A stretch of 64,000 bases of DNA from a virus, in IMG/VR virus record IMGVR_UViG_3300014781_000001. One strand, 5' to 3'. Shown piece by piece: positions 320 to 44,345 of this stretch; position 1 is the stretch's first letter; each line of letters starts with the position of its first letter. The notes below the pieces were generated by a model that was not told the DNA's origin, did not search any database, and saw only the letters and a program-made list of their open reading frames with translations. The translations under genes were made by a program, and so were the position numbers.

Positions 320-1288
320 ATGGCTTTTAGAGAAAACAGAAGTTTTGGTACAACTTATTATCTGTATATTAATTCAGATGGTAACTTGTATGAAAAAAGT
401 AACGAACCAAAAGAAGGTTTTGTTCAGCACATAAATCCTAATAGCGGTCAGCCGGCGGGATATTGGAAAGAGTATTATAATGGAGTAGTTGGATACATTA
501 ACTACATCGGGTTAAAGTCAAGCTCTTTCTCTAATGGAAATACTGTTACTAATTTCCTTATCGTATTAAAAGATTACGAGCTTAATGAAAACTATTGTAT
601 TTCCATACCTCTCGTCAATCAAAAAGGAAATATCAAGGGCTTTGTTAAGAGCTTCGTAAAATACTACGAAAACATCGATTTCAGTCGTGAAATTTATTTC
701 AATGTCTTTAAGAAGAAGAAAGATGACGAGTTTGGATCTTCGGAACTTATTATCGCATATGCCGGAGTAGACGGAGAAAACGATCAGCTTGTTGAACGTT
801 TTTATAAAAAAGGCGTAAATGGTTGGCCTGACCCTGTTGAAGTTACAGGATTTGATGGCAAGAAAAGCCTTGATTATTCAGCTCAAAACAACTTCACTTA
901 TCAGAAGATTACTGAATATTCAAACAGATTCAATGCTTCTATTAAAGATATCAGAGCAGGTATAATGGCTAAATTAGGTTTAGGAGGAAATGCTCAGCAA
1001 GATCCTACAGCTCCTCAGACTTATCCCCAGCAGCCGGCCGCGCCTCAACAGGTTCAACAACCTCAGTCTGTTCCGAGTGCTATTCCGTATCAGAATTATC
1101 AACAGCCTGCTCAACAGCCAGCACAGTATCAGGCACCGGCTTATACGCCACAGCCGACTGCTCAGCCTGCTGCACCTGCCCCGGCGCCTGCTACAAGGAG
1201 CACCAAGCCTCAGCATCAGACGCAGCCACAGCCGCAAGCACAGATGCCGAACTTTCCTCCTATGGAAGAAGATGACCTTCCATTTTAA
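320..1288 (+). CDS. single-stranded DNA-binding-like protein with a Q/P-rich linker and an acidic C-terminal tip
   Basis: The C-terminus MEEDDLPF resembles the bacterial SSB tip (DDDIPF). It is preceded by about 110 aa of Q/P/A low complexity. The N-terminal ~200 aa are not a recognisable classical OB-fold by eye. Confidence 0.5.
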   Translation: MAFRENRSFGTTYYLYINSDGNLYEKSNEPKEGFVQHINPNSGQPAGYWKEYYNGVVGYINYIGLKSSSFSNGNTVTNFLIVLKDYELNENYCISIPLVNQKGNIKGFVKSFVKYYENIDFSREIYFNVFKKKKDDEFGSSELIIAYAGVDGENDQLVERFYKKGVNGWPDPVEVTGFDGKKSLDYSAQNNFTYQKITEYSNRFNASIKDIRAGIMAKLGLGGNAQQDPTAPQTYPQQPAAPQQVQQPQSVPSAIPYQNYQQPAQQPAQYQAPAYTPQPTAQPAAPAPAPATRSTKPQHQTQPQPQAQMPNFPPMEEDDLPF

Positions 1289-3022: not shown

Positions 3023-3130
3023 GTATTTTAATCCTTTTTATATTTTAATGTTTGCCATATTATGGGTTAGTACTTAACTTTGCGTTGAGAGAGTTTTTAG
3101 GATAATTATTGGTTAAAAATTTAGCTGTTA

Positions 3131-3165
3131 TATGCAGGCGTCTGTGAAGGCTCCTGCATATTTTT
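3131..3165 (+). terminator. conserved-loop hairpin (family member H1) plus T-run, upstream of the tRNA cluster
   Basis: Stem tatgcagg/cctgcata, loop CGTCTGTGAAGGCT, followed by TTTTT. Confidence 0.5.
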
Positions 3166-3167
3166 AA

Positions 3168-3240
3168 GGTCCTGTGGCTTAGTGGTGAAAGCAAGATGCT
3201 CATAACATCGAGATCGTGGGTTCAAATCCCTCCGGGACCA
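3168..3240 (+). tRNA. tRNA-Met(CAT): tRNA-Met/Ile2 (anticodon CAT)
   Basis: Acceptor ggtcctg/cgggacc, anticodon loop cTCATAa, T-loop GGTTCAAATCC. There is one U-U mismatch in the T-stem. Confidence 0.6.
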
Positions 3241-3241
3241 C

Positions 3242-3312
3242 TGTCCAATGGTGTAGTGGTAGCACAACAGATTTTGGTTCTGTTAGCGGAGGTTCGAATC
3301 CTCCTTGGATAA
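3242..3312 (+). tRNA. tRNA-Gln(TTG): tRNA-Gln (anticodon TTG)
   Basis: Folded by hand as a full cloverleaf. Acceptor tgtccaa/ttggata with a G-U pair, D-stem gtgt/gcac, anticodon stem acaga/tctgt, loop ttTTGgt, T-arm ggagg-ttcgaat-cctcc. Confidence 0.85.
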
Positions 3313-3382
3313 CGGTACATATTTTGTGTAAAGTGTTAATTATCTAAGTGTTTGTGGTGTGTGAACATAGCAAACATTAAAT

Positions 3383-3454
3383 GGCCCATTAGTTTAACGG
3401 ATAAAACCCTTGAGTCCTAATCAAAAGTTGCCTGTTCGATTCAGGCATGGGCTA
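3383..3454 (+). tRNA. tRNA-Arg(CCT): tRNA-Arg (anticodon CCT)
   Basis: Acceptor ggcccat/atgggct, D-stem gttt/aaac, anticodon loop gtCCTaa, T-arm gcctg-ttcgatt-caggc. There is one C-A mismatch at the base of the anticodon stem. Confidence 0.7.
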
Positions 3455-3457
3455 CAT

Positions 3458-3529
3458 GGCTTGTTGGATGAGTGGTTTAGTCAGGGATCTGCAAAATCTC
3501 GTAGGGCGGTTCGATTCCGCCACAAGCCT
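3458..3529 (+). tRNA. tRNA-Cys(GCA): tRNA-Cys (anticodon GCA)
   Basis: Acceptor ggcttgt/acaagcc (perfect), anticodon stem gggat/atctc, loop ctGCAaa, T-arm ggcgg-ttcgatt-ccgcc. Confidence 0.8.
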
Positions 3530-3546
3530 CTAAAAAAAGTAAGACA

Positions 3547-4239
3547 ATGAACTACCCAGAGCAACAAATGCTTAAGATCCTTAATAGGGATCTGTTAAGT
3601 AATCCGATGTATGTTATTAACAATCTTCATATATATGATTGGGAATCTGACTTCCTGGCCATAACAAGATCATTGTACGCTTATGAAGTAGAGGTCAAGA
3701 TGTCTAAACAAGATTTCTTTAACGACTTCAAAAAGGATAAAAAACATAAGGTTCTTAAAGACGGCATTATTAAGGTAGGTGGTGTCATAAGCTATCCTCC
3801 AAACTATTTCTATTACGCCTGTCCTCCTAATATGATTGACGTAAGTGAAGTTCCGTCTTATGCCGGGCTTATTTATGTCGATGTTAGTAAAAATAGGAAG
3901 AACGTCGTTAAGGTCGCACCTTTAATTCATAGACAGAAGTTTGATGTAGTGGGTAGGAAACTGGTGGATAAGTTTTACTACAATATGCTTACTTGGAAGA
4001 AAAGAGCTATTTCAAACGTGTATGCTGACCCGGCCAAGGAAAGAGAGAAAGGCGTGCGTGCCGGAGCTGAGGCTGTGAGGAAGTCGGCCTGGGATGCGTT
4101 CAGGGCGCAGTGCCCGCACATTGCTTTCCCCTATGGAAAAGAATTTCCGATGTGTGATGATCACGAACAAGATCATCCCATGAGAGACTGCATACTTCAG
4201 TGTGAAAAAGGTAGAATATTTAAAAACAAATTAAAATGA
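3547..4239 (+). CDS. hypothetical protein with a possible PD-(D/E)xK-like D..ESD..EVEVK pattern and a C-terminal Cys/His cluster
   Basis: YDWESDFLAITRSLYAYEVEVK, and the C-terminal CPH..C..H..H..C..C cluster. Confidence 0.45.
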   Translation: MNYPEQQMLKILNRDLLSNPMYVINNLHIYDWESDFLAITRSLYAYEVEVKMSKQDFFNDFKKDKKHKVLKDGIIKVGGVISYPPNYFYYACPPNMIDVSEVPSYAGLIYVDVSKNRKNVVKVAPLIHRQKFDVVGRKLVDKFYYNMLTWKKRAISNVYADPAKEREKGVRAGAEAVRKSAWDAFRAQCPHIAFPYGKEFPMCDDHEQDHPMRDCILQCEKGRIFKNKLK

Positions 4240-7974: not shown

Positions 7975-8015
7975 GGTAATTTTAAAATATTGTTGGTTGT
8001 AGTAAGCAGGGAGGT

Positions 8016-8052
8016 CCTAAATAGGCTTCCCTGCTTTTTTTTATGTGATGAG
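8016..8052 (+). terminator. intrinsic terminator
   Basis: gcaggga-ggtcctaaataggc-tccctgc followed by TTTTTTTT. Confidence 0.65.
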
Positions 8053-8175
8053 AAAGAAAGGTGAAAATGTTTATGTTACGGTAGAGAGATTAAAAATGTT
8101 TATGTGATAGGAGAGAAGCTAAAAAAGGTTTATGTGATGAGGGATATGAAAAAATGTTTATGTGATGGGAGAGAG
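8040..8175. repeat. iteron-like array: five copies of TTTATGTGATG at about 29-30-bp spacing
   Basis: Copies start near 8040, 8069, 8099, 8129 and 8158. The array is followed by two GAAACGCGTTTT palindromes and C-rich tracts. Confidence 0.6.
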
Positions 8176-8430: not shown

Positions 8431-8591
8431 AATATAATCGAAATTAATACAAATTAACAAAAAAAAGATAGCATATATATTTGTAGTAATGGTAAATGTA
8501 GTATATTTGCAATGTGATTAAGAGAGATCACGAGTTAACACAGTGAACCTATATAGTGTACCCGTTGGGCTAACTATATCTGTATCTGTAA

Positions 8592-9194: not shown

Positions 9195-9647
9195 CAAGGC
9201 ACGGAGAGCGCCGTTAAGCTCTCCAAAGGTTTGACGCGTACCGTTAAACGCGCTTGTACGCCGTTGTCAGTGGGTGCACGTCCCGCGTATGCTTTAGACT
9301 GAAGCTGACAAGCAGAGAGTTATTTTACATATTGGAGATAGATATACCGTTGCCCTTGCCGTTGGCAATTAAAGGGCTGGTATTACTGCATGAATCACCC
9401 GAATAGGCGTGATTCATGTTAGGTATGTGATTACAGTTTGGAAAACATGCCGTTGTACGAGGTTTATCTCCAGATCGAAACGTGTCTTACTTGCTTACAC
9501 GAAAAAATAGAACAAGGCTGTAGATTAAATTACAGGGTACAAGCATGTAGCCTACCATGTAGGGACGTGCCGTATCAAAACGCAAGGACACAATCGCCTT
9601 TATTTGTGGCTAAGTTGTGTAGCAGACGGAAAATATAATAACAACAT

Positions 9648-9680
9648 AGTACGGGCCTGTACACAAGAACTACGTACTAA
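9648..9680 (+). promoter_or_regulatory. hairpin family member H-A
   Basis: tagtacg-GGCCTGTACACAAGAACTA-cgtacta. Confidence 0.35.
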
Positions 9681-9727
9681 TTACGGGCTGTTGGTTGTAG
9701 CATAAAATTCGTATAGAATAGGAATGC

Positions 9728-9949
9728 GTGTTCGGTTCGATTCCGGAGCAACCTCTAAATTATAAACAATATAATAACATGGGAAAGAAAGCAATGATCA
9801 ACGCTTTAACTGAAGCGTTCAATAAATCTAAAAACAGTTGCGTAAAAATAACATTGCGTAACTATATCGAGACGGTTGAAGCACTAAGCGAAAGTGAGTA
9901 CAAAGAGGCGGAAGGTTTCTATATTGAAGCACTTAACCGCTGGGGTTAA
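9728..9949 (+). CDS. hypothetical small protein (probable start at the ATG at 9779)
   Basis: ORF track. The 5' part of the called ORF overlaps the conserved T-arm-like box. Confidence 0.4.
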   Translation: MFGSIPEQPLNYKQYNNMGKKAMINALTEAFNKSKNSCVKITLRNYIETVEALSESEYKEAEGFYIEALNRWG

Positions 9950-9971
9950 TCATAATTAAAGCATAAAGAAA

Positions 9972-10178
9972 ATGGAAAGGAAATTTAAATCTCACATGGT
10001 AGACGTTCGCGGTCTGTCCAGGAAAGAAGCTAAAGAAAAGCGGAAAAGAGCGTATCGTGAATTTATGTTGTATCGTGATCTCAAAGAAGCGTATCATGCC
10101 GATACGGGAAAGGATAAATGCAAGCGTAAAGTTCATACATCACGAACATACGTTAAGGAAAATATAAACAGTATTTAA
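9972..10178 (+). CDS. hypothetical small basic protein
   Basis: K/R-rich 68-aa ORF followed by a hairpin plus T-run at 10189-10232. Confidence 0.4.
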   Translation: MERKFKSHMVDVRGLSRKEAKEKRKRAYREFMLYRDLKEAYHADTGKDKCKRKVHTSRTYVKENINSI

Positions 10179-10531
10179 ACAGGAGTAGGGTTGTTCCGAA
10201 CTTCGGAGCGGCCCTATTTTTGTATCCTACTCTTTATATTCATGGGTAGGATATTCTGAGAGTGAACGGCGGACGTGGACAAAATTGGTCTAAAACGAAA
10301 CAAAAATAAGGCCATTCGGATATAATGCCGGTATTTTGTCTATATCATGTCGTTAAAATTGGTCTAAAACGAAACTTGAGGCGGTTTTCTGACCCAAAAT
10401 AGGGTGTCGGATGCCGCCTTTTTCGTCTCTATGGATTGAAAATTAGGCTTATTGTATTTTTCTCAAAAATGAGGTATGCTTGATTATTAATTAGTTAGGT
10501 TTTATAATACCCGTATTTTCGGACATACTTA

Positions 10532-10717
10532 TTGTATTTTTTTTATTTTATGTGGTGGTTTTTATTAGTAGCTGACTTGTATTTTCTGTCGGTTGGTATT
10601 CGTTCTATGTTGGAGTACGGACCGGATCAGTATAATATTGTAATGGTCTTTTGCTTTTCCTTATTGGCTTTGATTATAGGCTTAAATATCTATCTTGATA
10701 GGAGGAGCAGGCGGTAG
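10532..10717 (+). CDS. hypothetical small membrane protein (two hydrophobic helices)
   Basis: MYFFYFMWWFLLVADLYFLSVG....LLALIIGLNIYL. Confidence 0.3.
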   Translation: MYFFYFMWWFLLVADLYFLSVGIRSMLEYGPDQYNIVMVFCFSLLALIIGLNIYLDRRSRR

Positions 10718-11580
10718 GGCGTGGGCTGAAGATTTCTATTCTCTCTATGGAATGATATTATTTCTAAACACTCTATATCCCATTCCATAGTATAGCTCAG
10801 TAGCGCTCTCCGTATGCCGGTAGTGAGGCTGAGAGCGCAGGTTCTATGCTGTAAGCCGGAGGATTAGCCGGGGTTGGAGAGGGGGAGAGGGAGGGCACTC
10901 TCTTCCAACAAAATTCAACAGATCAGCGTTTTAAAACAGTGTTCTGTAGATCATTTCCACAAAATTCAATATGATAAGGGTTTAAAACAGCATTATATAG
11001 GTTCCTTCCAACAGATTAAGGGTTGAGGACTGCATTATGTGAGTATTTTTTTCAATCGGAATGTATAACAATTAAAATATGGATGGTATGAACGTATATG
11101 ATTTTGCACCCGATTTAGATTTGAGTAAAGAAGTAGAAGGTTCTATTTTTGGGGTGAAAGGAATAGAAGGCAGTGATGGTATAGTATGTGCTAAGGTAGT
11201 TAGCTGTGTAGACGTTAAGGATTACAGTTGTGATAGGTGTATTTTTTTATGATTGTTATAAGGATAAATGTTTATTATCGCGTAGTGATAGTTGTATAGA
11301 TGGAGATTGGATTTGTAGGTACGAACAGGCTGCCATAGAGGGGGAGTAGGCGGCGCCTTGGGCTAAGGCCTGCGGTTGTCGGGCAGGACGTAGGTCAAAG
11401 CAGAGCCGGAACAGTTTGTTGTGGAACTAAAAAAAATAAAAAGGAGGAGATAGCGATATGAAAAAGGCATTTAAGATATTTTCTATTATGTTTGTCATAG
11501 AAATAGTGCTGATAGCTATTTTAGATGCTATGGCGTAAGTGAGAAAAATTTCTTCATTAATTTTCTTATGCTTTAGACAG

Positions 11581-11610
11581 AGTGCTCCCGTCTGCGAAGA
11601 TCGGAGCACT
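11581..11610 (+). promoter_or_regulatory. hairpin family member H-B
   Basis: agtgctcc-CGTCTGCGAAGAT-cggagcact. Confidence 0.5.
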
Positions 11611-11640
11611 TGCTTTATGGGATTCATGGTGCGGTAGGTC

Positions 11641-11668
11641 GGTTCGATTCCGGCGATCTCACACAACA
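11641..11668 (+). promoter_or_regulatory. tRNA-T-arm-like conserved box B (GGTTCGATTCCGG..ATCTCACACAACA)
   Basis: Near-identical to the boxes at 12495-12521 and 9735-9753. It lies 24 nt upstream of the ATG at 11692. Confidence 0.5.
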
Positions 11669-11691
11669 TTAAAAACAAAGGAGGAAAGAAA

Positions 11692-12039
11692 ATGAAAGAT
11701 GGTATTACATTACATCCAGAACACGGATTGAATCCGTCTATAGAAGTTTGCATGATATGTGGCGAAGAGATGGGGATTGCTTTATTAGGGAATAACATCA
11801 AAGGGCAGGCGCCGCATCATATATGCACGGGAGAAATATGTGACAATTGCAAAAAGATAATAGATGACGGAGGTTGTTTTATTATCGAAGTCGAGGATGG
11901 ATCAGATCAAAAGAATCCGTATCGTACAGGGAGATATTGCGCGATAAAGAAAGAAGCAGCAAAGAAAATACTTGGACAGGAGCATAGTATTGTGTACATG
12001 GAAAAGTCTGCGTACAGTCAAATAATACCACAAAAATAA
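11692..12039 (+). CDS. hypothetical Cys-rich protein
   Basis: A strong SD-like AAAGGAGGAAAG precedes the ATG. Contains CMICGEE...CTGEICDNC. Confidence 0.55.
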   Translation: MKDGITLHPEHGLNPSIEVCMICGEEMGIALLGNNIKGQAPHHICTGEICDNCKKIIDDGGCFIIEVEDGSDQKNPYRTGRYCAIKKEAAKKILGQEHSIVYMEKSAYSQIIPQK

Positions 12040-12047
12040 AGAAAGAT

Positions 12048-12362
12048 ATGTTTACAAAAGAAGAGCGATTATTCATATGGAAAAAGGTATATGAGATGAT
12101 TGATAGGTTAGAGGATGGGGAATACATATGTGTTGCGTTAAGAAATGTAGTGTTTATGTATTTCAAAACACATAAAAATATCTATGAGTTTCGTTCAGAC
12201 GAAATGGTGAGAATATATTTCCCGGAATTGGAGGAGAAGATAAGTATGGCCACAGAACCAGAGGAAACAAGAACGTTTTATGGGTGGTTTGGTTGTCTTA
12301 GTCCAGAAACGAAGGAGGTAAGGCTGAATATTGTGAAAGATATTATAAAAGAATTAGAATAG
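12048..12362 (+). CDS. hypothetical protein
   Basis: ORF track. Confidence 0.5.
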   Translation: MFTKEERLFIWKKVYEMIDRLEDGEYICVALRNVVFMYFKTHKNIYEFRSDEMVRIYFPELEEKISMATEPEETRTFYGWFGCLSPETKEVRLNIVKDIIKELE

Positions 12363-12408
12363 TATTTTTGTTAATCTATTTTATTCATCAAATTAAGTTT
12401 TGGGTTTT

Positions 12409-12438
12409 GGCATGTCGGTTCGTGAGGATAGGCATGCC
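12409..12438 (+). promoter_or_regulatory. hairpin family member H-C
   Basis: ggcatg-TCGGTTCGTGAGGATAGG-catgcc. Confidence 0.45.
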
Positions 12439-12494
12439 TATTTCTGCATCATAGAGGGGATGACGCGGCGTGCCGGTGCGTATGTGCCGGTCCT

Positions 12495-12521
12495 GGTTCG
12501 ATTCTGGGCATCTCACAAACA
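12495..12521 (+). promoter_or_regulatory. tRNA-T-arm-like conserved box C
   Basis: GGTTCGATTCTGGGCATCTCACAAACA, 17 nt upstream of the ATG at 12538. Confidence 0.5.
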
Positions 12522-12537
12522 ATAAAACAAAAAAGTT

Positions 12538-12771
12538 ATGAGAATATATAAGAATGATATTATAAAGGCGTCAGCAATAAGCACCGGAGCCGACAGAGGC
12601 GTGTTGCTGTGTTCAATAACAGATTCAGGCTTTACGTCTATAGCGGGCGTAATATCGGCTGTTAAGGATAGGTTACCAAACGAAGATCACAAGAAGATGG
12701 TTTTTGAAATCTTGAATGATACGAAAAAAGAGTACGGAAGATATAATAATTGCGGAACAAAAGTATTGTAA
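12538..12771 (+). CDS. hypothetical protein
   Basis: ORF track. Confidence 0.5.
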   Translation: MRIYKNDIIKASAISTGADRGVLLCSITDSGFTSIAGVISAVKDRLPNEDHKKMVFEILNDTKKEYGRYNNCGTKVL

Positions 12772-12828
12772 TAAAGAGTAGAAAACAATATGTTTATGTA
12801 ATATTAGTTTTTTCATTTTTATTGAAAG

Positions 12829-12856
12829 GAGCGCCGGCCTGTGAAGGTATGCGCTC
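12829..12856 (+). promoter_or_regulatory. hairpin family member H2
   Basis: gagcgc-CGGCCTGTGAAGGTAT-gcgctc. Confidence 0.5.
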
Positions 12857-12890
12857 TTTGTATTTGTATAATGCATAAAACAATAATAAT

Positions 12891-13145
12891 ATGACAGAGA
12901 ATAGTATAGACGTAAATATCGTACCTGTAAAGAATGGTGCGAAACGTGTTGTGGTATCATATTACCATTATTCACGCAAGGACAAAAATCACATGAGTTC
13001 CCAAACGGATTACGTTTGGGAAACAAAGAATGAAGAAATGTTTAAATACTTTGAGGCCAGGAGGACAAAAGTATTTTATAGTCAGATTCGTGCCATGTGT
13101 AGATTCTATGGCAAGAAAAATGTACGTAAATACAAAAAGTTATGA
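12891..13145 (+). CDS. hypothetical protein
   Basis: ORF track. Confidence 0.5.
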   Translation: MTENSIDVNIVPVKNGAKRVVVSYYHYSRKDKNHMSSQTDYVWETKNEEMFKYFEARRTKVFYSQIRAMCRFYGKKNVRKYKKL

Positions 13146-26963: not shown

Positions 26964-27887
26964 ATGTTCGATTTTAAATCACTTCCCGAATTTTCAAAAT
27001 TGTTCCCTGATGAGCAAGCATGTATAACCTTTCTTGAAAAAGAAAGGTGGGGAGATCACGTTGTTTCTCCTTTTGATCCGGAATCTAAGGTGTATAAATG
27101 CAAAGGAAATAGGTACAAGTGTAAAAACACGGGTAAATACTTCAATGTTCGTACAGGAACGATTTTTGAAAATTCAAAGGTTTCATTACGAAAATGGATG
27201 CTGGCTTGTTATTTTGTTGTTGAAATGAAAAGAGGAGTATCATCTTTACAGTTGTCTAAAATCGTGGGAGTAACACAGAAAACGGCTTGGTTTATGCTTC
27301 AACGTATTCATAATTGTTTTAGTATTGAAATAAAAGAGCCGTGTTTGAAAGGCGAGATTGAAGTGGATGAAACTTATATTGGTGGCAAAAACAAGAATAG
27401 ACATAGTAAGGATAAAGTTAAAGATGCACAGGGGAGATCTTTAAAAGATAAAACCCCTGTGTTTGGGACACTCCAACGAGAAGGATTTGTTGTCGCTTAT
27501 GTCGTTACAGACACAAAAGGTAAAACCTTACTTCCTTTGATATACAATACCGTTCATCCTAATTCTACCATATATTCTGACGAATGGTATGCGTATAACG
27601 GGATCGACAAAGAAAAGTTTGATCATCAAAAAGTATATCACAAAAAGGGAGCGTATGTAATAGGCAGAAGATCAACAAACACAATCGAAGGATATTGGAG
27701 CCATTTGAAGAAAATGATTTCTGGAACCCATTTCTGGGTGTCGAGAAAACATCTTCAAAGATATGTAGATTGCGAATCTTTCAGATATAACACGAAACAT
27801 CTATCGGAATCTGAAAGATTCGATGTATTTTTGCAGAATACCAAACGACGATTAAGGTATTCACAACTAAAGAAAATTACGGCATGA
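26964..27887 (+). CDS. IS1595-family transposase
   Basis: N-terminal zinc ribbon (CKGNRYKCKNTGKYF) plus the ISXO2-like DDE region. The WMLACYF..KRGVSSLQLSK..GVTQKTAW helix-turn-helix is typical of IS1595 transposases. Confidence 0.8.
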   Translation: MFDFKSLPEFSKLFPDEQACITFLEKERWGDHVVSPFDPESKVYKCKGNRYKCKNTGKYFNVRTGTIFENSKVSLRKWMLACYFVVEMKRGVSSLQLSKIVGVTQKTAWFMLQRIHNCFSIEIKEPCLKGEIEVDETYIGGKNKNRHSKDKVKDAQGRSLKDKTPVFGTLQREGFVVAYVVTDTKGKTLLPLIYNTVHPNSTIYSDEWYAYNGIDKEKFDHQKVYHKKGAYVIGRRSTNTIEGYWSHLKKMISGTHFWVSRKHLQRYVDCESFRYNTKHLSESERFDVFLQNTKRRLRYSQLKKITA

Positions 27888-28368: not shown

Positions 28369-29172
28369 ATGATAACATCAGTAAAAATAAAAGACAATAC
28401 AAAAACTCCATTTGAATATGCTTCTGACATAGAAGCGTTTGAAAATGGCAGAGAATTTATTTTCAAGCCAGGAGTGAATGTAATTATAGGTAAAAACGGT
28501 AGTGGAAAATCAACTTTGCTTAACATCATATCAATGTATGCGTTATGTGAGAAATCCATGTGTTCTGAAATACCGATCGAGGCACTGGATTTTCCACCTA
28601 TATTTGATGATGATGATGATGACAAGGTTCTTGATGGGATTGACATATCATCCGATTATGCAGGGAAAGTATTCCGTTTATTGCCATCGGCGGAGATGAA
28701 TCGAGATAGTGTATTGAAAAACATCAGCAATTTAGATTTGTATGTGAATAATATTCAAAGATCTTATGGAGAGAAAGTGGTGTTATCATTGGAATCACTT
28801 TTCAATTTAATGTTCGGTCAAAAGGATTATACATTTCCAATACAAGATCTTGTAGAATACAAGAAAAAATCAAATGCGTTTTGGATTAAAAGAATTGATA
28901 ATCTGTTGAAGTATTATAAAAGAAATCGCATAACATTAACAGAAAGCAGTTTTGAATACACGGTTCTCATGGATGAGCCAGACAGGAATCTTGACATTGA
29001 CAACATAATGCAAATTTATAATGTATTGTCATTCCATAAACCACAAACGCAAATTATAGCCATAATACACAATCCGGCATTGATTTACAAGTTAAGCAAA
29101 TTAGATTGTGTGAATTTCATAGAGATGACAGAAGGGTATCTTAATAAAACTTGTACATTTGTGTCCAACTAA
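28369..29172 (+). CDS. ABC/AAA-type ATPase (RecF/OLD-like P-loop, AAA_15/21-like)
   Basis: Walker A GKNGSGKSTLLNIIS. Walker B/D-loop VLMDEPDRNLD. Internal DDDDDD acidic tract. Confidence 0.6.
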   Translation: MITSVKIKDNTKTPFEYASDIEAFENGREFIFKPGVNVIIGKNGSGKSTLLNIISMYALCEKSMCSEIPIEALDFPPIFDDDDDDKVLDGIDISSDYAGKVFRLLPSAEMNRDSVLKNISNLDLYVNNIQRSYGEKVVLSLESLFNLMFGQKDYTFPIQDLVEYKKKSNAFWIKRIDNLLKYYKRNRITLTESSFEYTVLMDEPDRNLDIDNIMQIYNVLSFHKPQTQIIAIIHNPALIYKLSKLDCVNFIEMTEGYLNKTCTFVSN

Positions 29173-43818: not shown

Positions 43819-43999
43819 ATACAATGGCCCAAGGTTACACTTGGGCCTAATTGAAGAAATAAAAGCAGCATTCATAGATTTCCTGCCGGCGGAAACAGTG
43901 CTTTTAAGTGCTTTACTAATTACGATATTTTTAACATGGATTTTGGACAAGATTTAGAACCAGAAGAACTGACCAATCATTATGATCAGTGTTATAACC

Positions 44000-44345
44000 C
44001 CAAATAGTATTAAACCAATATAATTCTATTATAAAAGTTTAATACATCTCTTTAAGAGATCGGGTTATTAGCCTAAGCCTTGAAACAAAGGCTACGTTAT
44101 TTAAGAATAGATAGTTACCTACGGATGTTTGCCCAAGTCTGTAGCTCTAAGGTAAGTGATTAAACAGTTCTGGTATTCAGGAACAGTGTTGCTTATTCAA
44201 AACCTTAAATAACATTGGCGATGGGTACTTACAGGAGAAATCCTGACTTATCCCTAACGGGATTTACATCTACCAAGGAGACCGAAAGGTCTCCGAGGGG
44301 ATGTATTAAAACATACGAATAGCTTTAAATATATTTAATAGAATA
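44000..44345 (+). ncRNA. candidate structured non-coding RNA related to the iscB upstream (omega-RNA) region
   Basis: 530-bp gap with no ORF. Positions 44199-44234 are 35/36 identical to the sequence 48 nt upstream of the iscB start (reverse complement of 63961-63996). Hairpins present: ccc-taac-ggg and ggagacc-GAAA-ggtctcc. Confidence 0.35.

What the first reader, a model, noticed from the sequence alone, without database searches (positions are those of the whole stretch)
9648..12521. Composite element: family hairpin followed by a tRNA T-arm-like box (GGTTCGATTCYGG...ATCTCACAAACA) 17-26 nt upstream of three small genes
Copies at 9735-9753, 11641-11668 and 12495-12521 contain a perfect T-stem/T-loop-like GG-TTCGATT-CC core. 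Copies B and C also share the following ATCTCACA(C)AAACA. Each lies 50-90 nt after a family hairpin and ends about 17-26 nt before the start codon of a small ORF (9779, 11692, 12538). I could not fold any of them into a complete tRNA. No acceptor-stem partner exists, and the distance from hairpin to T-arm is too short in copy B. So they look like tRNA-derived or tRNA-mimicking 5' leader modules. The tRNA-Met gene at 3168 is also immediately preceded by a family hairpin. This suggests the hairpin-plus-tRNA-like unit is a recurring transcription or processing cassette, for example an RNase P/Z-type processing signal that defines mRNA 5' ends.
Basis: seen in the sequence. Interest (0 to 1): 0.6.

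Follow-up and report, generated by a model that had tools for sequence, protein, structure and literature searches.

The report
tRNA-like minihelices punctuating phage operons
Three short tRNA look-alikes, each a perfect T arm stacked on an acceptor-type stem with no anticodon or D arm, sit between a hairpin and the next small gene in a crAss-like gut phage; they most likely act as cut-here signals for tRNA-processing enzymes, and they also mark the points where gene cassettes are swapped.

Summary
The three boxes are real. GGTTCGATTCYGG occurs exactly at 9734, 11641 and 12495, outside any tRNA gene. Each is a canonical T arm: a 5-bp stem with a UUCGAUU loop.

This gives an acceptor/T-arm minihelix with a variable 13-32 nt core. 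The elements are A 9692-9755, B 11618-11662 and C 12456-12516. Standard tRNA models reject them.

About 260 orthologous copies in over 120 related gut-phage contigs keep the stems paired. T-loop variation falls almost only at tRNA positions 59/60. Variation concentrates in the core, and C's inner hairpin can be deleted.

Different genes follow the same element in different genomes, and B/C recombinants exist. A fourth family (E), unrelated in sequence but with the same design, occurs in relatives.

Best model (about 0.5): phage counterparts of plant-mitochondrial t-elements. These would be RNase P/RNase Z processing signals that separate upstream and downstream mRNAs, and they also serve as recombination junctions.

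Weak points:
- There are no RNA data.
- Folding z-scores for A-C are not significant.
- The acceptor stems are only collectively significant.
- Covariation is modest because all copies are close relatives.

The parts
9647..9679 (+). Upstream hairpin of element A (TAGTACG ... CGTACTA)
   Evidence: Read from the sequence. It lies in a low-diversity block that extends from about -95 to +80 around element A in 48 related copies.
9692..9755 (+). Element A, a 64-nt tRNA-like minihelix. Acceptor 5' strand 9692-9698; outer stem 9700-9703 with 9724-9727; inner hairpin 9707-9719; T stem 9731-9735 with 9743-9747; T loop 9736-9742; acceptor 3' strand 9748-9754; discriminator 9755.
   Evidence: The RNAfold minimum-energy structure equals this model. 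95.3% of pair cells are standard across 16 distinct variants, with both-sides changes in the T stem (C-G to U-A) and the inner hairpin; 0 of 500 shuffles reach the observed values.
9756..9778 (+). A-rich 23-nt leader between element A and the ATG at 9779 (56-aa ORF, 9779-9949)
   Evidence: Alternative downstream sequences begin inside or just after this leader in L046, L107 and L034.
11580..11611 (+). Upstream hairpin of element B: a long stem with a GCGA tetraloop
   Evidence: Predicted by RNAfold. Compensatory stem changes occur among relatives: GAGUGC/GCACUU, GAAUGC/GCAUUU and GAACGC/GCGUUU.
11618..11662 (+). Element B, a 45-nt minihelix. Acceptor 5' strand 11618-11624; 13-nt core 11625-11637; T stem 11638-11642 with 11650-11654; T loop 11643-11649; acceptor 3' strand 11655-11661; discriminator 11662.
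   Evidence: 99.0% of pair cells are standard in 17 distinct variants, including a G-C to A-U change in the T stem. The rival helix of the RNAfold minimum-energy fold is broken in 11 of 17 and 8 of 17 variants. Most variation lies in core columns 18-23.
11663..11691 (+). 29-nt leader (CACAACAUUAAAA...) before the ATG at 11692 (115-aa zinc-ribbon-like ORF)
   Evidence: The cassette breakpoint falls right after ...ATTAAAA. At least four different downstream sequences follow it among relatives.
12409..12438 (+). Upstream hairpin of element C (GGCAUG ... CAUGCC, GUGA tetraloop), followed by UAUUUCUG
   Evidence: The terminator-like stem was aligned to the 3' hairpin of the BTnc231 model, far below that family's threshold.
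12456..12516 (+). Element C, a 61-nt minihelix. Acceptor 5' strand 12456-12462; dispensable inner hairpin 12473-12490; T stem 12492-12496 with 12504-12508; T loop 12497-12503; acceptor 3' strand 12509-12515; discriminator 12516.
   Evidence: 92.9% of pair cells are standard in 31 distinct variants; the T stem is 99.4% paired. The inner hairpin is deleted in L040 and L072. C is a paralogue of B, sharing the acceptor strands and the leader.
12517..12537 (+). 21-nt leader (AAACAAUAAAAC...) before the ATG at 12538 (77-aa ORF)
   Evidence: Either the 77-aa ORF or a 141-aa ORF follows ...AATAAAAC in relatives. The same 8-mer recurs in front of the 77-aa ORF in Sib.
3131..3546 (+). Comparator in the same phage: hairpin plus TTTTT, then tRNA-Met, tRNA-Gln, tRNA-Arg and tRNA-Cys, then a 17-nt A-rich leader before the ATG at 3547
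   Evidence: This is the same hairpin, tRNA, short leader, ORF layout built with genuine tRNAs.

Best explanation
A, B and C are tRNA-derived minihelices: a 6-7 bp acceptor-type stem stacked directly on a canonical 5-bp T stem with a UUCGAUU loop. A short variable core replaces the D and anticodon arms. They are transcribed inside polycistronic + strand messages of a crAss-like gut phage.

Proposed mechanism (inferred, not shown). RNase P cuts at the 5' edge of the minihelix. This leaves the upstream mRNA ending in its GNRA-capped hairpin. RNase Z, or an equivalent tRNA 3' endonuclease, cuts after the discriminator. None of the elements, nor the phage's own tRNAs, encodes CCA. The downstream mRNA then starts with an unstructured A-rich leader 21-29 nt before its start codon. 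A 45-64 nt tRNA-like RNA is released as a by-product.

The elements would therefore work like the t-elements of plant mitochondria, that is, as tRNA punctuation. The 30-130 nt modules are conserved while the flanking small genes are not. As a result they also act as homology patches where cassettes are inserted, deleted and exchanged.
For: Shown.
- The exact T-arm consensus occurs three times outside tRNA genes.
- The acceptor 3' strand follows the T stem without a gap in all three elements.
- About 260 orthologous copies were found in the >120 related contigs fetched, namely 49 A, 110 B and 102 C.
- Pair cells are standard in 95.3% (A), 99.0% (B) and 92.9% (C) of cases, against 23-58% when the partners are slid.
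- Both-sides changes occur in the T stems (A: C-G to U-A at two pairs; B: G-C to A-U) and in the acceptor stem (C: G-C to A-U).
- In L061 three substitutions in B's 3' strand all keep pairing. In L034 two substitutions in A's 3' strand complete a 7-bp stem.
- Many pairs are G.U. The structure is therefore specific to the sense strand, that is, to RNA.
- T-loop variants fall at N59/N60 (five variant loop sequences across the three families), plus one G57A that stays a purine and one U55C singleton. This is the tRNA pattern of constraint.
- B's core is the most variable part. C's inner hairpin is deleted in two genomes, which leaves a B-like element.
- The RNAfold rival helix for B is broken in most variants.
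- Family E, unrelated in sequence, has the same layout: GNRA hairpin, UUUU, 6-7 bp acceptor, 30-nt core, T arm, 31-33-nt leader (depending on register), ORF. It occurs in 27 contigs and folds as predicted with z = -2.9.
- tRNA-Cys lies 17 nt upstream of an ORF in the same phage.
- No sigma-70-type or Bacteroides-type promoter match lies between hairpin and element. This fits co-transcription with the upstream gene.

From the literature: t-elements carrying the GGTTCRANYCC motif direct RNase P/Z cleavage at mRNA ends, and the released element receives non-templated C/CA (PMC1920247).
Against: - No RNA-end or expression data of any kind were available.
- Folding z-scores for A, B and C are not significant: -1.4, +0.4 and -0.2.
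- RNAfold does not predict C's weak T stem, which has two G.U pairs. For B it prefers another helix.
- The acceptor partners are individually compatible with chance: p = 0.045, 0.10 and 0.22. Only together with E (0.008 for the better of two registers) do they reach about p = 0.004 by my Fisher combination.
- Covariation beyond column composition is clear only for A (0 of 500 shuffles). It is borderline for B (35 of 500) and absent for C (490 of 500).
- All copies come from one narrow lineage.
- Some variants break pairs. A C-to-A change at the first base of C's acceptor 3' strand breaks a pair in 4 distinct sequences. Position 1 never pairs in C and almost never in A.
- The elements are absent from a relative whose ORF115 is 50% identical and from every other GenBank phage.
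- The host, and so its RNase Z and CCA pathway, is unknown.
Confidence: 0.5

Rival explanations
1. The released 45-64 nt tRNA mimics are the functional product and act in trans. For example, they could act as decoys or sponges for host tRNA-binding enzymes or tRNA-directed defence nucleases. They could also be substrates for the lineage's own RNA toolkit: the Ro60/Y-RNA system, the nucleotidyltransferase-like protein and Pnkp. On this view mRNA punctuation is secondary.
For: - The T loop is conserved at exactly the positions that proteins and RNase P read on tRNAs.
- An invariant GG-containing stretch follows the acceptor 5' strand in B (CAUGGUG). It could mimic the D-loop G18G19, but this is my inference.
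- The close relative Sib encodes a TROVE/Ro60 protein next to a sub-threshold YrlA-like RNA (28.5 bits, E = 0.0024).
- Sib also carries genes annotated as Pnkp and as a polyA-polymerase/CCA-adding-like enzyme.
- Family E lies about 1.3 kb downstream of that nucleotidyltransferase-like gene in many contigs.
Against: - There is no anticodon loop, so the elements cannot be decoys for anticodon nucleases.
- The core region, which would give a trans-acting RNA its specificity, is the least conserved part and can be deleted.
- The elements are always in sense orientation immediately upstream of an ORF, which suits a cis role.
- The nucleotidyltransferase gene is missing from this window. Its match to the Pfam PolyA_pol family is sub-threshold (E = 0.049).
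- The E-to-nucleotidyltransferase linkage comes from near-identical contigs, so it is not independent evidence.
Confidence: 0.15
2. The elements are non-functional relics of phage tRNA genes that lost their D and anticodon arms by internal deletion. They persist only because the lineage is young, and they matter only as accidental recombination hot spots.
For: - Deletion between short direct repeats is seen directly: C's hairpin is lost between two GCCGGT repeats in L040 and L072.
- Divergence between the window and Sib inside the elements is 5-7% by my count. This is only slightly below the genome-wide figure of about 8%.
- Covariation statistics are weak for B and C.
- The distant relative Cellulophaga phage phi17:2 carries orphan T arms next to its tRNA clusters. 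One, at 142801-142817, has no acceptor partner and looks like simple decay.
Against: - Every locus that contains the flanking anchors still has the element. Neighbouring ORFs are deleted or replaced right up to its borders in L014, L047, L100 and Sib compared with the window.
- Substitutions avoid T54-A58. Common variants keep the stems paired.
- All four families (A, B/C and E) retain both the 5' and 3' acceptor strands plus the T arm and have lost the same parts. Random truncation would not be expected to do this.
- The elements lie 6-9 kb from the tRNA cluster, each 21-29 nt before a start codon.
Confidence: 0.15
3. The conserved box is a DNA-level signal. It could be a promoter, for example a hairpin promoter for the crAss-type virion RNA polymerase, or a target for site-specific recombination that moves the small-gene cassettes.
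For: - Early promoters of crAss-like virion RNA polymerases are undefined. No common motif was found upstream of phi14:2 early transcripts, and the enzyme transcribed denatured DNA in vitro (bioRxiv 10.1101/2020.03.07.982082).
- The boxes lie 30-45 nt upstream of start codons.
- Cassette breakpoints cluster at the elements.
Against: - The stems contain many G.U pairs, which would be A.C mismatches on the template strand.
- The sequence equals the universal tRNA T arm, and its loop varies only where tRNAs vary.
- Breakpoints are not at one fixed position. They lie at short homologies such as AATAAAAC or TAAAAC, as expected for homologous or illegitimate recombination.
- No recombinase gene is part of the cassettes; their ORFs have no recombinase matches.
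- The 3' half is not a copy of any host tRNA end in 185,579 species genomes.
Confidence: 0.07
4. The element is a 5'-UTR structure that controls the downstream gene in cis without cleavage. For example, it could protect the mRNA 5' end or modulate read-through of the preceding terminator-like hairpin.
For: The position is fixed between a terminator-like hairpin and an ORF. A U-rich tract lies between hairpin and element in C and E.
Against: A generic stabilising structure has no need for a canonical T loop. The start codon and leader lie outside the structure and are unstructured. Nothing in the element pairs with the hairpin or with the ribosome-binding region.
Confidence: 0.08

Closest known systems
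t-elements of plant mitochondria (tRNA-like processing signals; Forner et al. 2007, PMC1920247)
   Same: Both have a conserved GGTTCRANYCC T arm and an acceptor-like stem without a canonical cloverleaf. Both lie directly upstream or downstream of mRNAs. In plants, cleavage by RNase P/RNase Z generates the mRNA ends, and the released element receives non-templated C/CA. The layout here is the same.
   Different: These elements are in a bacteriophage rather than an organelle. They are much smaller (45-64 nt; B has only a 13-nt core). Each is paired with an upstream GNRA hairpin and coincides with cassette-exchange breakpoints. Cleavage has not been demonstrated here.
tRNA-mRNA co-transcripts and tRNA punctuation (for example mitochondrial polycistrons; the E. 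coli thrU-tyrU-glyT-thrT-tufB operon, from my own knowledge)
   Same: A tRNA-shaped structure upstream of an ORF defines the mRNA 5' end when the tRNA is processed. This phage shows the arrangement with a real tRNA: tRNA-Cys lies 17 nt before the ATG at 3547.
   Different: Elements A, B and C cannot decode. They have no anticodon arm and fail tRNA models.
PeSL cassettes (promoter-early stem-loop) of T4-type phages
   Same: Both are repeated regulatory modules containing a stem-loop. Both lie between small ORFs of unknown function in a hyperplastic early region, and recombination between copies shuffles or deletes genes. Here L047 is a B/C fusion, L100 is a B copy fused into the gene downstream of C, and several B-to-C spacings occur.
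   Different: The conserved partner of the stem-loop is a tRNA-like RNA structure rather than a promoter. No promoter consensus was found in the module.
YrlA / bacterial Y RNA-like tRNA mimics (Rfam RF02553; Chen et al. 2014, PMC4201824, seen only as a search hit)
   Same: Both are phage- or bacterium-encoded tRNA mimics with a canonical T arm. The Sib relative carries a Ro60 gene and a weak YrlA-like match beside it.
   Different: YrlA is circularly permuted, with a closed acceptor-like hairpin, a D arm and a Ro60-binding stem formed by its ends. A, B and C have an open acceptor stem, no D arm and no YrlA match at E<=10. They lie about 70 kb from the rsr gene.
mascRNA / MALAT1 and the MHV68 tRNA-like-miRNA units (from my own knowledge)
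   Same: Both are tRNA-like modules embedded in longer transcripts and used to recruit RNase P/RNase Z for end formation.
   Different: Those are eukaryotic or herpesviral, have full cloverleaf-like folds, and sit in a different context.

Membership tests
tRNA (Rfam RF00005; ARAGORN) | Cloverleaf with a D arm and an anticodon arm carrying a 7-nt loop, scoring above the model threshold | tested here: not met
   ARAGORN with default settings and Rfam at gathering threshold find only the four tRNAs at 3168-3530. No tRNA match reaches E<=10 in 9400-12900. ARAGORN at 80% threshold calls A and C as poor pseudo-tRNAs with mismatched stems and does not call B. Its anticodon stem for A is contradicted by population variants. 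B has only 13 nt between acceptor and T stem.
tRNA (Rfam RF00005; ARAGORN) | T arm: a 5-bp stem closed by G53-C61 with loop U54 U55 C56 R57 A58 N59 N60 | tested here: met
   All three elements have a 5/5 stem with loop UUCGAUU. Variants among about 260 copies fall at positions 59/60, plus one G57A and one U55C.
tRNA minihelix (acceptor stem stacked on the T arm, the minimal RNase P / RNase Z / CCA-enzyme substrate) | The acceptor 3' strand continues the T-stem 3' strand without a gap and pairs with a 5' strand over about 7 bp, followed by an unpaired discriminator | tested here: met
   Stems are 6 bp (A), 7 bp (B) and 6 bp (C), each contiguous with the T stem. Pairing is kept in 87-99% of cells and by substitutions in L061, L034, L017 and Sib. 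Caveat: the partners are individually not beyond chance (p = 0.045-0.22).
t-elements (plant mitochondria) | GGTTCRANYCC motif within a non-canonical tRNA-like fold adjacent to an mRNA | tested here: met
   The definition is taken from PMC1920247.
t-elements (plant mitochondria) | mRNA 5' or 3' termini coincide with the element borders; the released element carries non-templated C/CA | not testable with these tools
   No transcript-end data were accessible.
t-elements (plant mitochondria) | Cleavage by RNase P and RNase Z | not testable with these tools
   This needs an in-vitro assay or end mapping in RNase-depleted hosts.
YrlA / Y RNA-like (RF02553) | Ro60-binding stem formed by the 5' and 3' ends, plus a permuted tRNA-like domain with a D arm; encoded next to rsr | tested here: not met
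   No RF02553 match at E<=10 in 9400-12900. There is no D arm. In Sib the rsr gene lies about 70 kb away, where a separate YrlA-like match exists.
PeSL-type mobile regulatory cassettes (T4-type phages) | An early promoter consensus inside the repeated module | tested here: not met
   No sigma-70-type or Bacteroides -33/-7 match lies between hairpin and ORF at A, B or C. Promoters of a phage polymerase cannot be excluded.
PeSL-type mobile regulatory cassettes (T4-type phages) | Repeated modules flank small variable ORFs, and recombination between copies shuffles them | tested here: met
   Several downstream gene sets follow B and C. L047 is a B/C fusion and L100 is a B copy fused into the next gene. 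B-to-C spacing ranges from 504 to 2209 nt.
attP/attB-type tRNA 3' fragment (integrase target) | The fragment is identical to the 3' end of a host tRNA gene and is associated with an integrase | tested here: not met
   The pattern covering the T arm, 3' strand and CA occurs in only one of 185,579 species genomes. That hit is a 3.9-kb copy of this phage region binned in a MAG. The cassette ORFs have no recombinase matches.

The most novel reading that the evidence does not exclude
The elements form a dual-purpose phage invention. tRNA-derived minihelices recruit host RNase P, RNase Z and CCA-adding enzyme to cut early polycistrons into mRNAs. The released, CCA-tailed tRNA mimics then act in trans. 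They might feed into, or protect against, tRNA-directed surveillance, together with the lineage's own Ro60/Y-RNA and nucleotidyltransferase-like genes. The same modules would serve as portable junctions that let the phage swap early-gene cassettes.
Probability: 0.1. Interest if true: 0.8.

Novelty: new variant of a known kind. Interest (0 to 1): 0.55.

Why it matters
If confirmed, this would be a clear bacteriophage counterpart of organellar t-elements: a minimal 45-64 nt tRNA mimic used to borrow the host's tRNA-processing enzymes for mRNA maturation.

It would give a concrete, testable handle on how crAss-like gut phages structure their poorly understood early transcripts. No promoter or processing motifs are known for these.

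It would also show how conserved RNA-processing modules double as recombination junctions that drive turnover of small early genes.

Finally, it flags a class of elements that standard tRNA finders and Rfam miss.

Tried and rejected
- Intact or pseudo-tRNA. Rejected by ARAGORN, by Rfam and by population variants.
- RNAfold's alternative helix for B (GGU/AUC). Rejected because it is broken in most variants.
- YrlA / Y RNA. No match at the three sites.
- Copy of a host tRNA 3' end (attP-like). Rejected by the genome-contig scan.
- Host-type promoter inside the module. None found.
- More copies in the window. A T-arm/acceptor descriptor scan found only A, B, C and the four tRNAs with good T arms. 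The whole Sib genome adds only the YrlA-like T arm.
- More distant homologues. A relative whose ORF115 is 50% identical (L127) has none. One distant ORF115-homologue contig (P0073) had no DNA available, and the P0062 contigs turned out to be close relatives that carry the elements. GenBank phages hold only Sib.
- Function of the downstream ORFs. No informative Pfam or PHROG matches.
- Literature search for 'csAssE'. It returned nothing relevant. Searches for tRNA-like elements in crAss-like or other phages found no prior description.
- Using Logan contig ends as a proxy for RNA ends. Abandoned as uninformative.
- A phage-encoded CCA-adding enzyme as support. The gene annotated in Sib has no match in this window and only a sub-threshold PolyA_pol match.
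- No covariance model was built. All copies are too closely related for it to add much.

Full report
**What the window is.** The window is about 91.5% identical in nucleotide sequence to phage csAssE-Sib (OR575929.1), a 151-kb human-gut Caudoviricetes genome with crAss-like structural genes such as muzzle, ring and portal proteins. The ends of that linear record map to about window position 10260, between elements A and B. All genes around the finding are on the + strand.

**Checking the observation.** GGTTCGATTCYGG occurs with no mismatch at 9734, 11641 and 12495. Within two mismatches, two of the other three matches are the T arms of tRNA-Arg and tRNA-Cys. ARAGORN and Rfam find only four tRNAs, at 3168-3530. 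A permissive Rfam scan of 9400-12900 gives no tRNA or Y-RNA match at E<=10.

One statement is wrong. Acceptor-stem partners do exist:
- A: UGGUUGU (9692-9698) pairs with GCAACCU (9748-9754).
- B: UGGGAUU (11618-11624) pairs with GAUCUCA (11655-11661).
- C: GGGGAUG (12456-12462) pairs with CAUCUCA (12509-12515).

In each case the 3' strand follows the T stem with no gap. Each element is therefore an acceptor/T-arm minihelix. The core that replaces the D and anticodon arms is 32 nt in A, 13 nt in B and 29 nt in C.

**Strength of the structure.**
- Thermodynamics alone is weak. RNAfold gives exactly my model for A. It gives the acceptor stem and inner hairpin, but not the weak T stem, for C. For B it gives the acceptor stem only in the centroid. 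The z-scores are -1.4, +0.4 and -0.2.
- A shuffle test asks whether an upstream partner as good as the observed one, contiguous with the T stem, arises by chance. It gives p = 0.045 (A), 0.10 (B) and 0.22 (C). The acceptor stems are thus not individually significant.
- Relaxed ARAGORN (80% threshold) forces A and C into poor cloverleaves. Its anticodon stem for A is contradicted by natural variants.

**Comparative evidence.** All are 80-250 kb human-gut contigs of the same lineage. I located orthologous copies by their flanks, not by the box itself. This gave 49 A, 110 B and 102 C copies, with 23, 25 and 41 distinct 80-100-nt flank-anchored windows; trimmed to the element itself these reduce to 16, 17 and 31 distinct variants.

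*Pairing.*
- Pair counts give 95.3% (A), 99.0% (B) and 92.9% (C) standard pairs, against 23-58% when partners are slid by 1-3 columns.
- Both-sides changes occur in A's T stem (C-G to U-A at two pairs) and A's inner hairpin. They also occur in B's T stem (G-C to A-U, with the A.C intermediate also present) and C's acceptor stem (G-C to A-U).
- In L061, three substitutions in B's 3' strand (GAUCUCA to AAUUCCA) all keep pairing.
- In L034, two substitutions in A's 3' strand complete a 7-bp stem.
- The helix that RNAfold prefers for B is broken in 11 of 17 and 8 of 17 variants.

*T loop and core.*
- T-loop variants are UUCGAGU, UUCGAAU, UUCGACU and UUCGAGC, all at positions 59/60. There is also one UUCAAUU (R57 stays a purine) and one singleton UCCGAUU. 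By my own binomial estimate, 6 of 8 events falling in 2 of 7 positions has p of about 0.009.
- B's core columns are its most polymorphic part.
- C's inner hairpin is deleted between two GCCGGT repeats in L040 and L072. This leaves a B-like element with a 15-nt core.
- The many G.U pairs make the structure specific to the sense strand.

*Caveats.*
- The shuffle control is clearly exceeded only for A (0 of 500). It is borderline for B (35 of 500) and not exceeded for C (490 of 500), because most changes are one-sided G-C/G.U switches.
- A few variants break pairs.
- All copies are close relatives.

**A fourth family.** A scan of all fetched loci for orphan T arms found family E in L038, at 10974-11037. 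The same element occurs in 27 IMG/VR contigs. Its stems are unrelated in sequence to A, B and C: UGGGACG/CGUCCCA and GAGCGG/CCGCUC. The layout is nevertheless identical: GNRA-capped hairpin, UUUU, acceptor strand, 30-nt core, T arm with UUCGAUU, acceptor strand, 31-33-nt leader (depending on register) and a 199-aa ORF.
- E folds exactly as predicted, with z = -2.9.
- Its acceptor partner has p = 0.008 for the better of two registers tested.
- Combining A, B and E by Fisher's method (my calculation) gives about p = 0.004.
- E is not present in the window.
- Four families have kept both acceptor strands and the T arm while losing the same internal parts. I regard this as the strongest argument that the minihelix itself is what is selected.

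**Cassette exchange.** The same element is followed by different genes in different genomes.
- After B's ...ATTAAAA comes one of the following: the 115-aa ORF; an extra 134-aa ORF, as in Sib; a variant leader; or, in L047, the gene that normally follows C. L047 is thus a B/C fusion that has lost everything in between.
- In L100, B is fused into the interior of the 77-aa gene.
- After C's ...AATAAAAC comes either the 77-aa ORF or a 141-aa ORF. The same 8-mer recurs before the 77-aa ORF in Sib.
- In L014, a deletion removes most of the upstream ORF and the hairpin but stops about 10 nt before C.
- B-to-C spacing ranges from 504 to 2209 nt.
- Column diversity shows low-diversity blocks covering the hairpin, element and leader. 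Beyond them, gapless alignment breaks down.
- The breakpoints sit at short homologies, not at one fixed site. This points to homologous or illegitimate recombination rather than a site-specific recombinase.

**Context.**
- tRNA-Cys ends at 3529 and is followed 17 nt later by the ATG at 3547. The tRNA cluster is preceded by a GNRA hairpin plus TTTTT. So the layout of hairpin, tRNA, short A-rich leader and ORF also exists with genuine tRNAs.
- None of the phage tRNAs or elements encodes CCA.
- Bacteroides-type promoter matches occur at 3051-3082 and 8480-8509, but not between any hairpin and its element. The sigma-70 scan is at background level.
- The downstream ORFs have no informative family matches. 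ORF115 has homologues down to 37% identity.
- A relative whose ORF115 is 50% identical has no such elements.
- The 3' half of the element is not a copy of any tRNA gene in 185,579 species genomes.

**Interpretation.** The best-supported reading is that these are phage counterparts of plant-mitochondrial t-elements. Those are tRNA-like structures carrying the GGTTCRANYCC motif. They direct RNase P and RNase Z to create mRNA ends, and the released element is tagged with C/CA (PMC1920247).

The following steps are inferred, not shown:
- co-transcription with the flanking genes;
- cleavage at both borders of the element;
- protection of the upstream 3' end by the hairpin;
- release of a leader-initiated downstream mRNA.

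The rivals are a trans-acting tRNA-mimic small RNA, a non-functional tRNA relic, a DNA-level promoter or recombination site, and a non-cleaved 5'-UTR structure. Each is given with evidence for and against in its own section. The promoter rival is worth keeping in mind because early promoters of crAss-like virion RNA polymerases are undefined. However, the G.U-rich, tRNA-like pattern of constraint argues against it.

**Novelty.** Literature searches found no description of such elements in crAss-like or other phages. Rfam has no family for them. The principle, tRNA-like processing signals, is known. The phage setting, the extreme reduction to a 45-nt minihelix, the pairing with a GNRA hairpin and the role as cassette junctions are new variants of it.

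Noticed in passing
window 43994-44232 (+): Full-length match to HEARO RNA (RF02033, the IscB-associated omega RNA): 112.9 bits against a gathering score of 83. This implies an IscB/IS200-605-type element in the phage. Sib is also annotated with TnpB copies.
   Followed up: no
OR575929.1 72601-72705 (= L125 12601-12705), outside the window: Sub-threshold YrlA (Y RNA-like) match: 28.5 bits, E = 0.0024, against a gathering score of 69. It has a canonical T arm (ACAGG-UUCGAGU-CCUGU). It lies just upstream of tRNA-Tyr, tRNA-Lys and a TROVE/Ro60 gene (Pfam E = 2.6e-14). This looks like a phage Ro60 / Y-RNA module.
   Followed up: partly
L038 10925-11069, and 26 further IMG/VR contigs (L131-L156): Family E, a fourth tRNA-like minihelix, unrelated in sequence, behind a GNRA hairpin and before a 199-aa ORF. 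In many contigs it lies about 1.3 kb downstream of a homologue of Sib's nucleotidyltransferase-like gene.
   Followed up: partly
window 10180-11080: A 900-nt non-coding region at the point where the Sib record begins and ends. It contains two terminator-like hairpins (10183-10222 and 10401-10420), a direct repeat AAAATTGGTCTAAAACGAAAC at about 10282 and 10357, a G+C-rich patch at about 10800-10900, and a second repeat pair at about 10903 and 10956. It may be a genome terminus, a packaging site, an origin or an early-promoter region.
   Followed up: no
window 8063-8174: Four tandem copies, spaced 28-30 nt, of a 25-nt unit (AAAAATGTTTATGTGATRGGAGAGA). They lie just after a strong terminator at 8004-8036 and upstream of a Bacteroides-type promoter match at 8480-8509. 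The arrangement resembles iterons or an operator array.
   Followed up: no
window 26964-27887 and 28369-29172: An IS1595-family (ISXO2-like) DDE transposase ORF (Pfam E = 3.8e-42), and an AAA_21/AbiEii-like ATPase ORF.
   Followed up: no
OR575929.1 137063-137725 compared with the window: The gene annotated in Sib as a polyA polymerase / CCA-adding enzyme has no tblastn match anywhere in the window. Its PolyA_pol head-domain match is only sub-threshold (E = 0.049). The annotation is weak and the gene is variable within the lineage.
   Followed up: partly
Cellulophaga phage phi17:2 NC_021798.1, about 91300, about 91420 and 142801-142825: This distant relative (33% identity in the large terminase) has orphan canonical T arms outside its 23 tRNA genes. 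Two lie at the end of the tRNA cluster. One lies about 18 nt after the solitary tRNA-Ile and about 24 nt before the next ORF; it has no acceptor partner.
   Followed up: partly
window 9417-9705: Sib annotates a 95-aa ORF (record 556-843, minus strand) whose end overlaps the 5' part of element A. In the window this frame is split into two short ORFs, 9438-9638 and 9604-9705. The annotated gene is therefore probably not real.
   Followed up: no
L038 10905-10937: A 31-nt stretch nearly identical to the unstructured 5' end of the Bacteroidetes FopS sRNA model (RF04319): 21.8 bits, E = 0.65, far below threshold. It lies just upstream of the hairpin of element E.
   Followed up: no
L123 (NZ_DXLG01000138.1): A 3.9-kb contig carrying element B and ORF115 is binned in a Veillonella sp. 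MAG. This is probably a binning artefact and at most a weak hint about the host.
   Followed up: no
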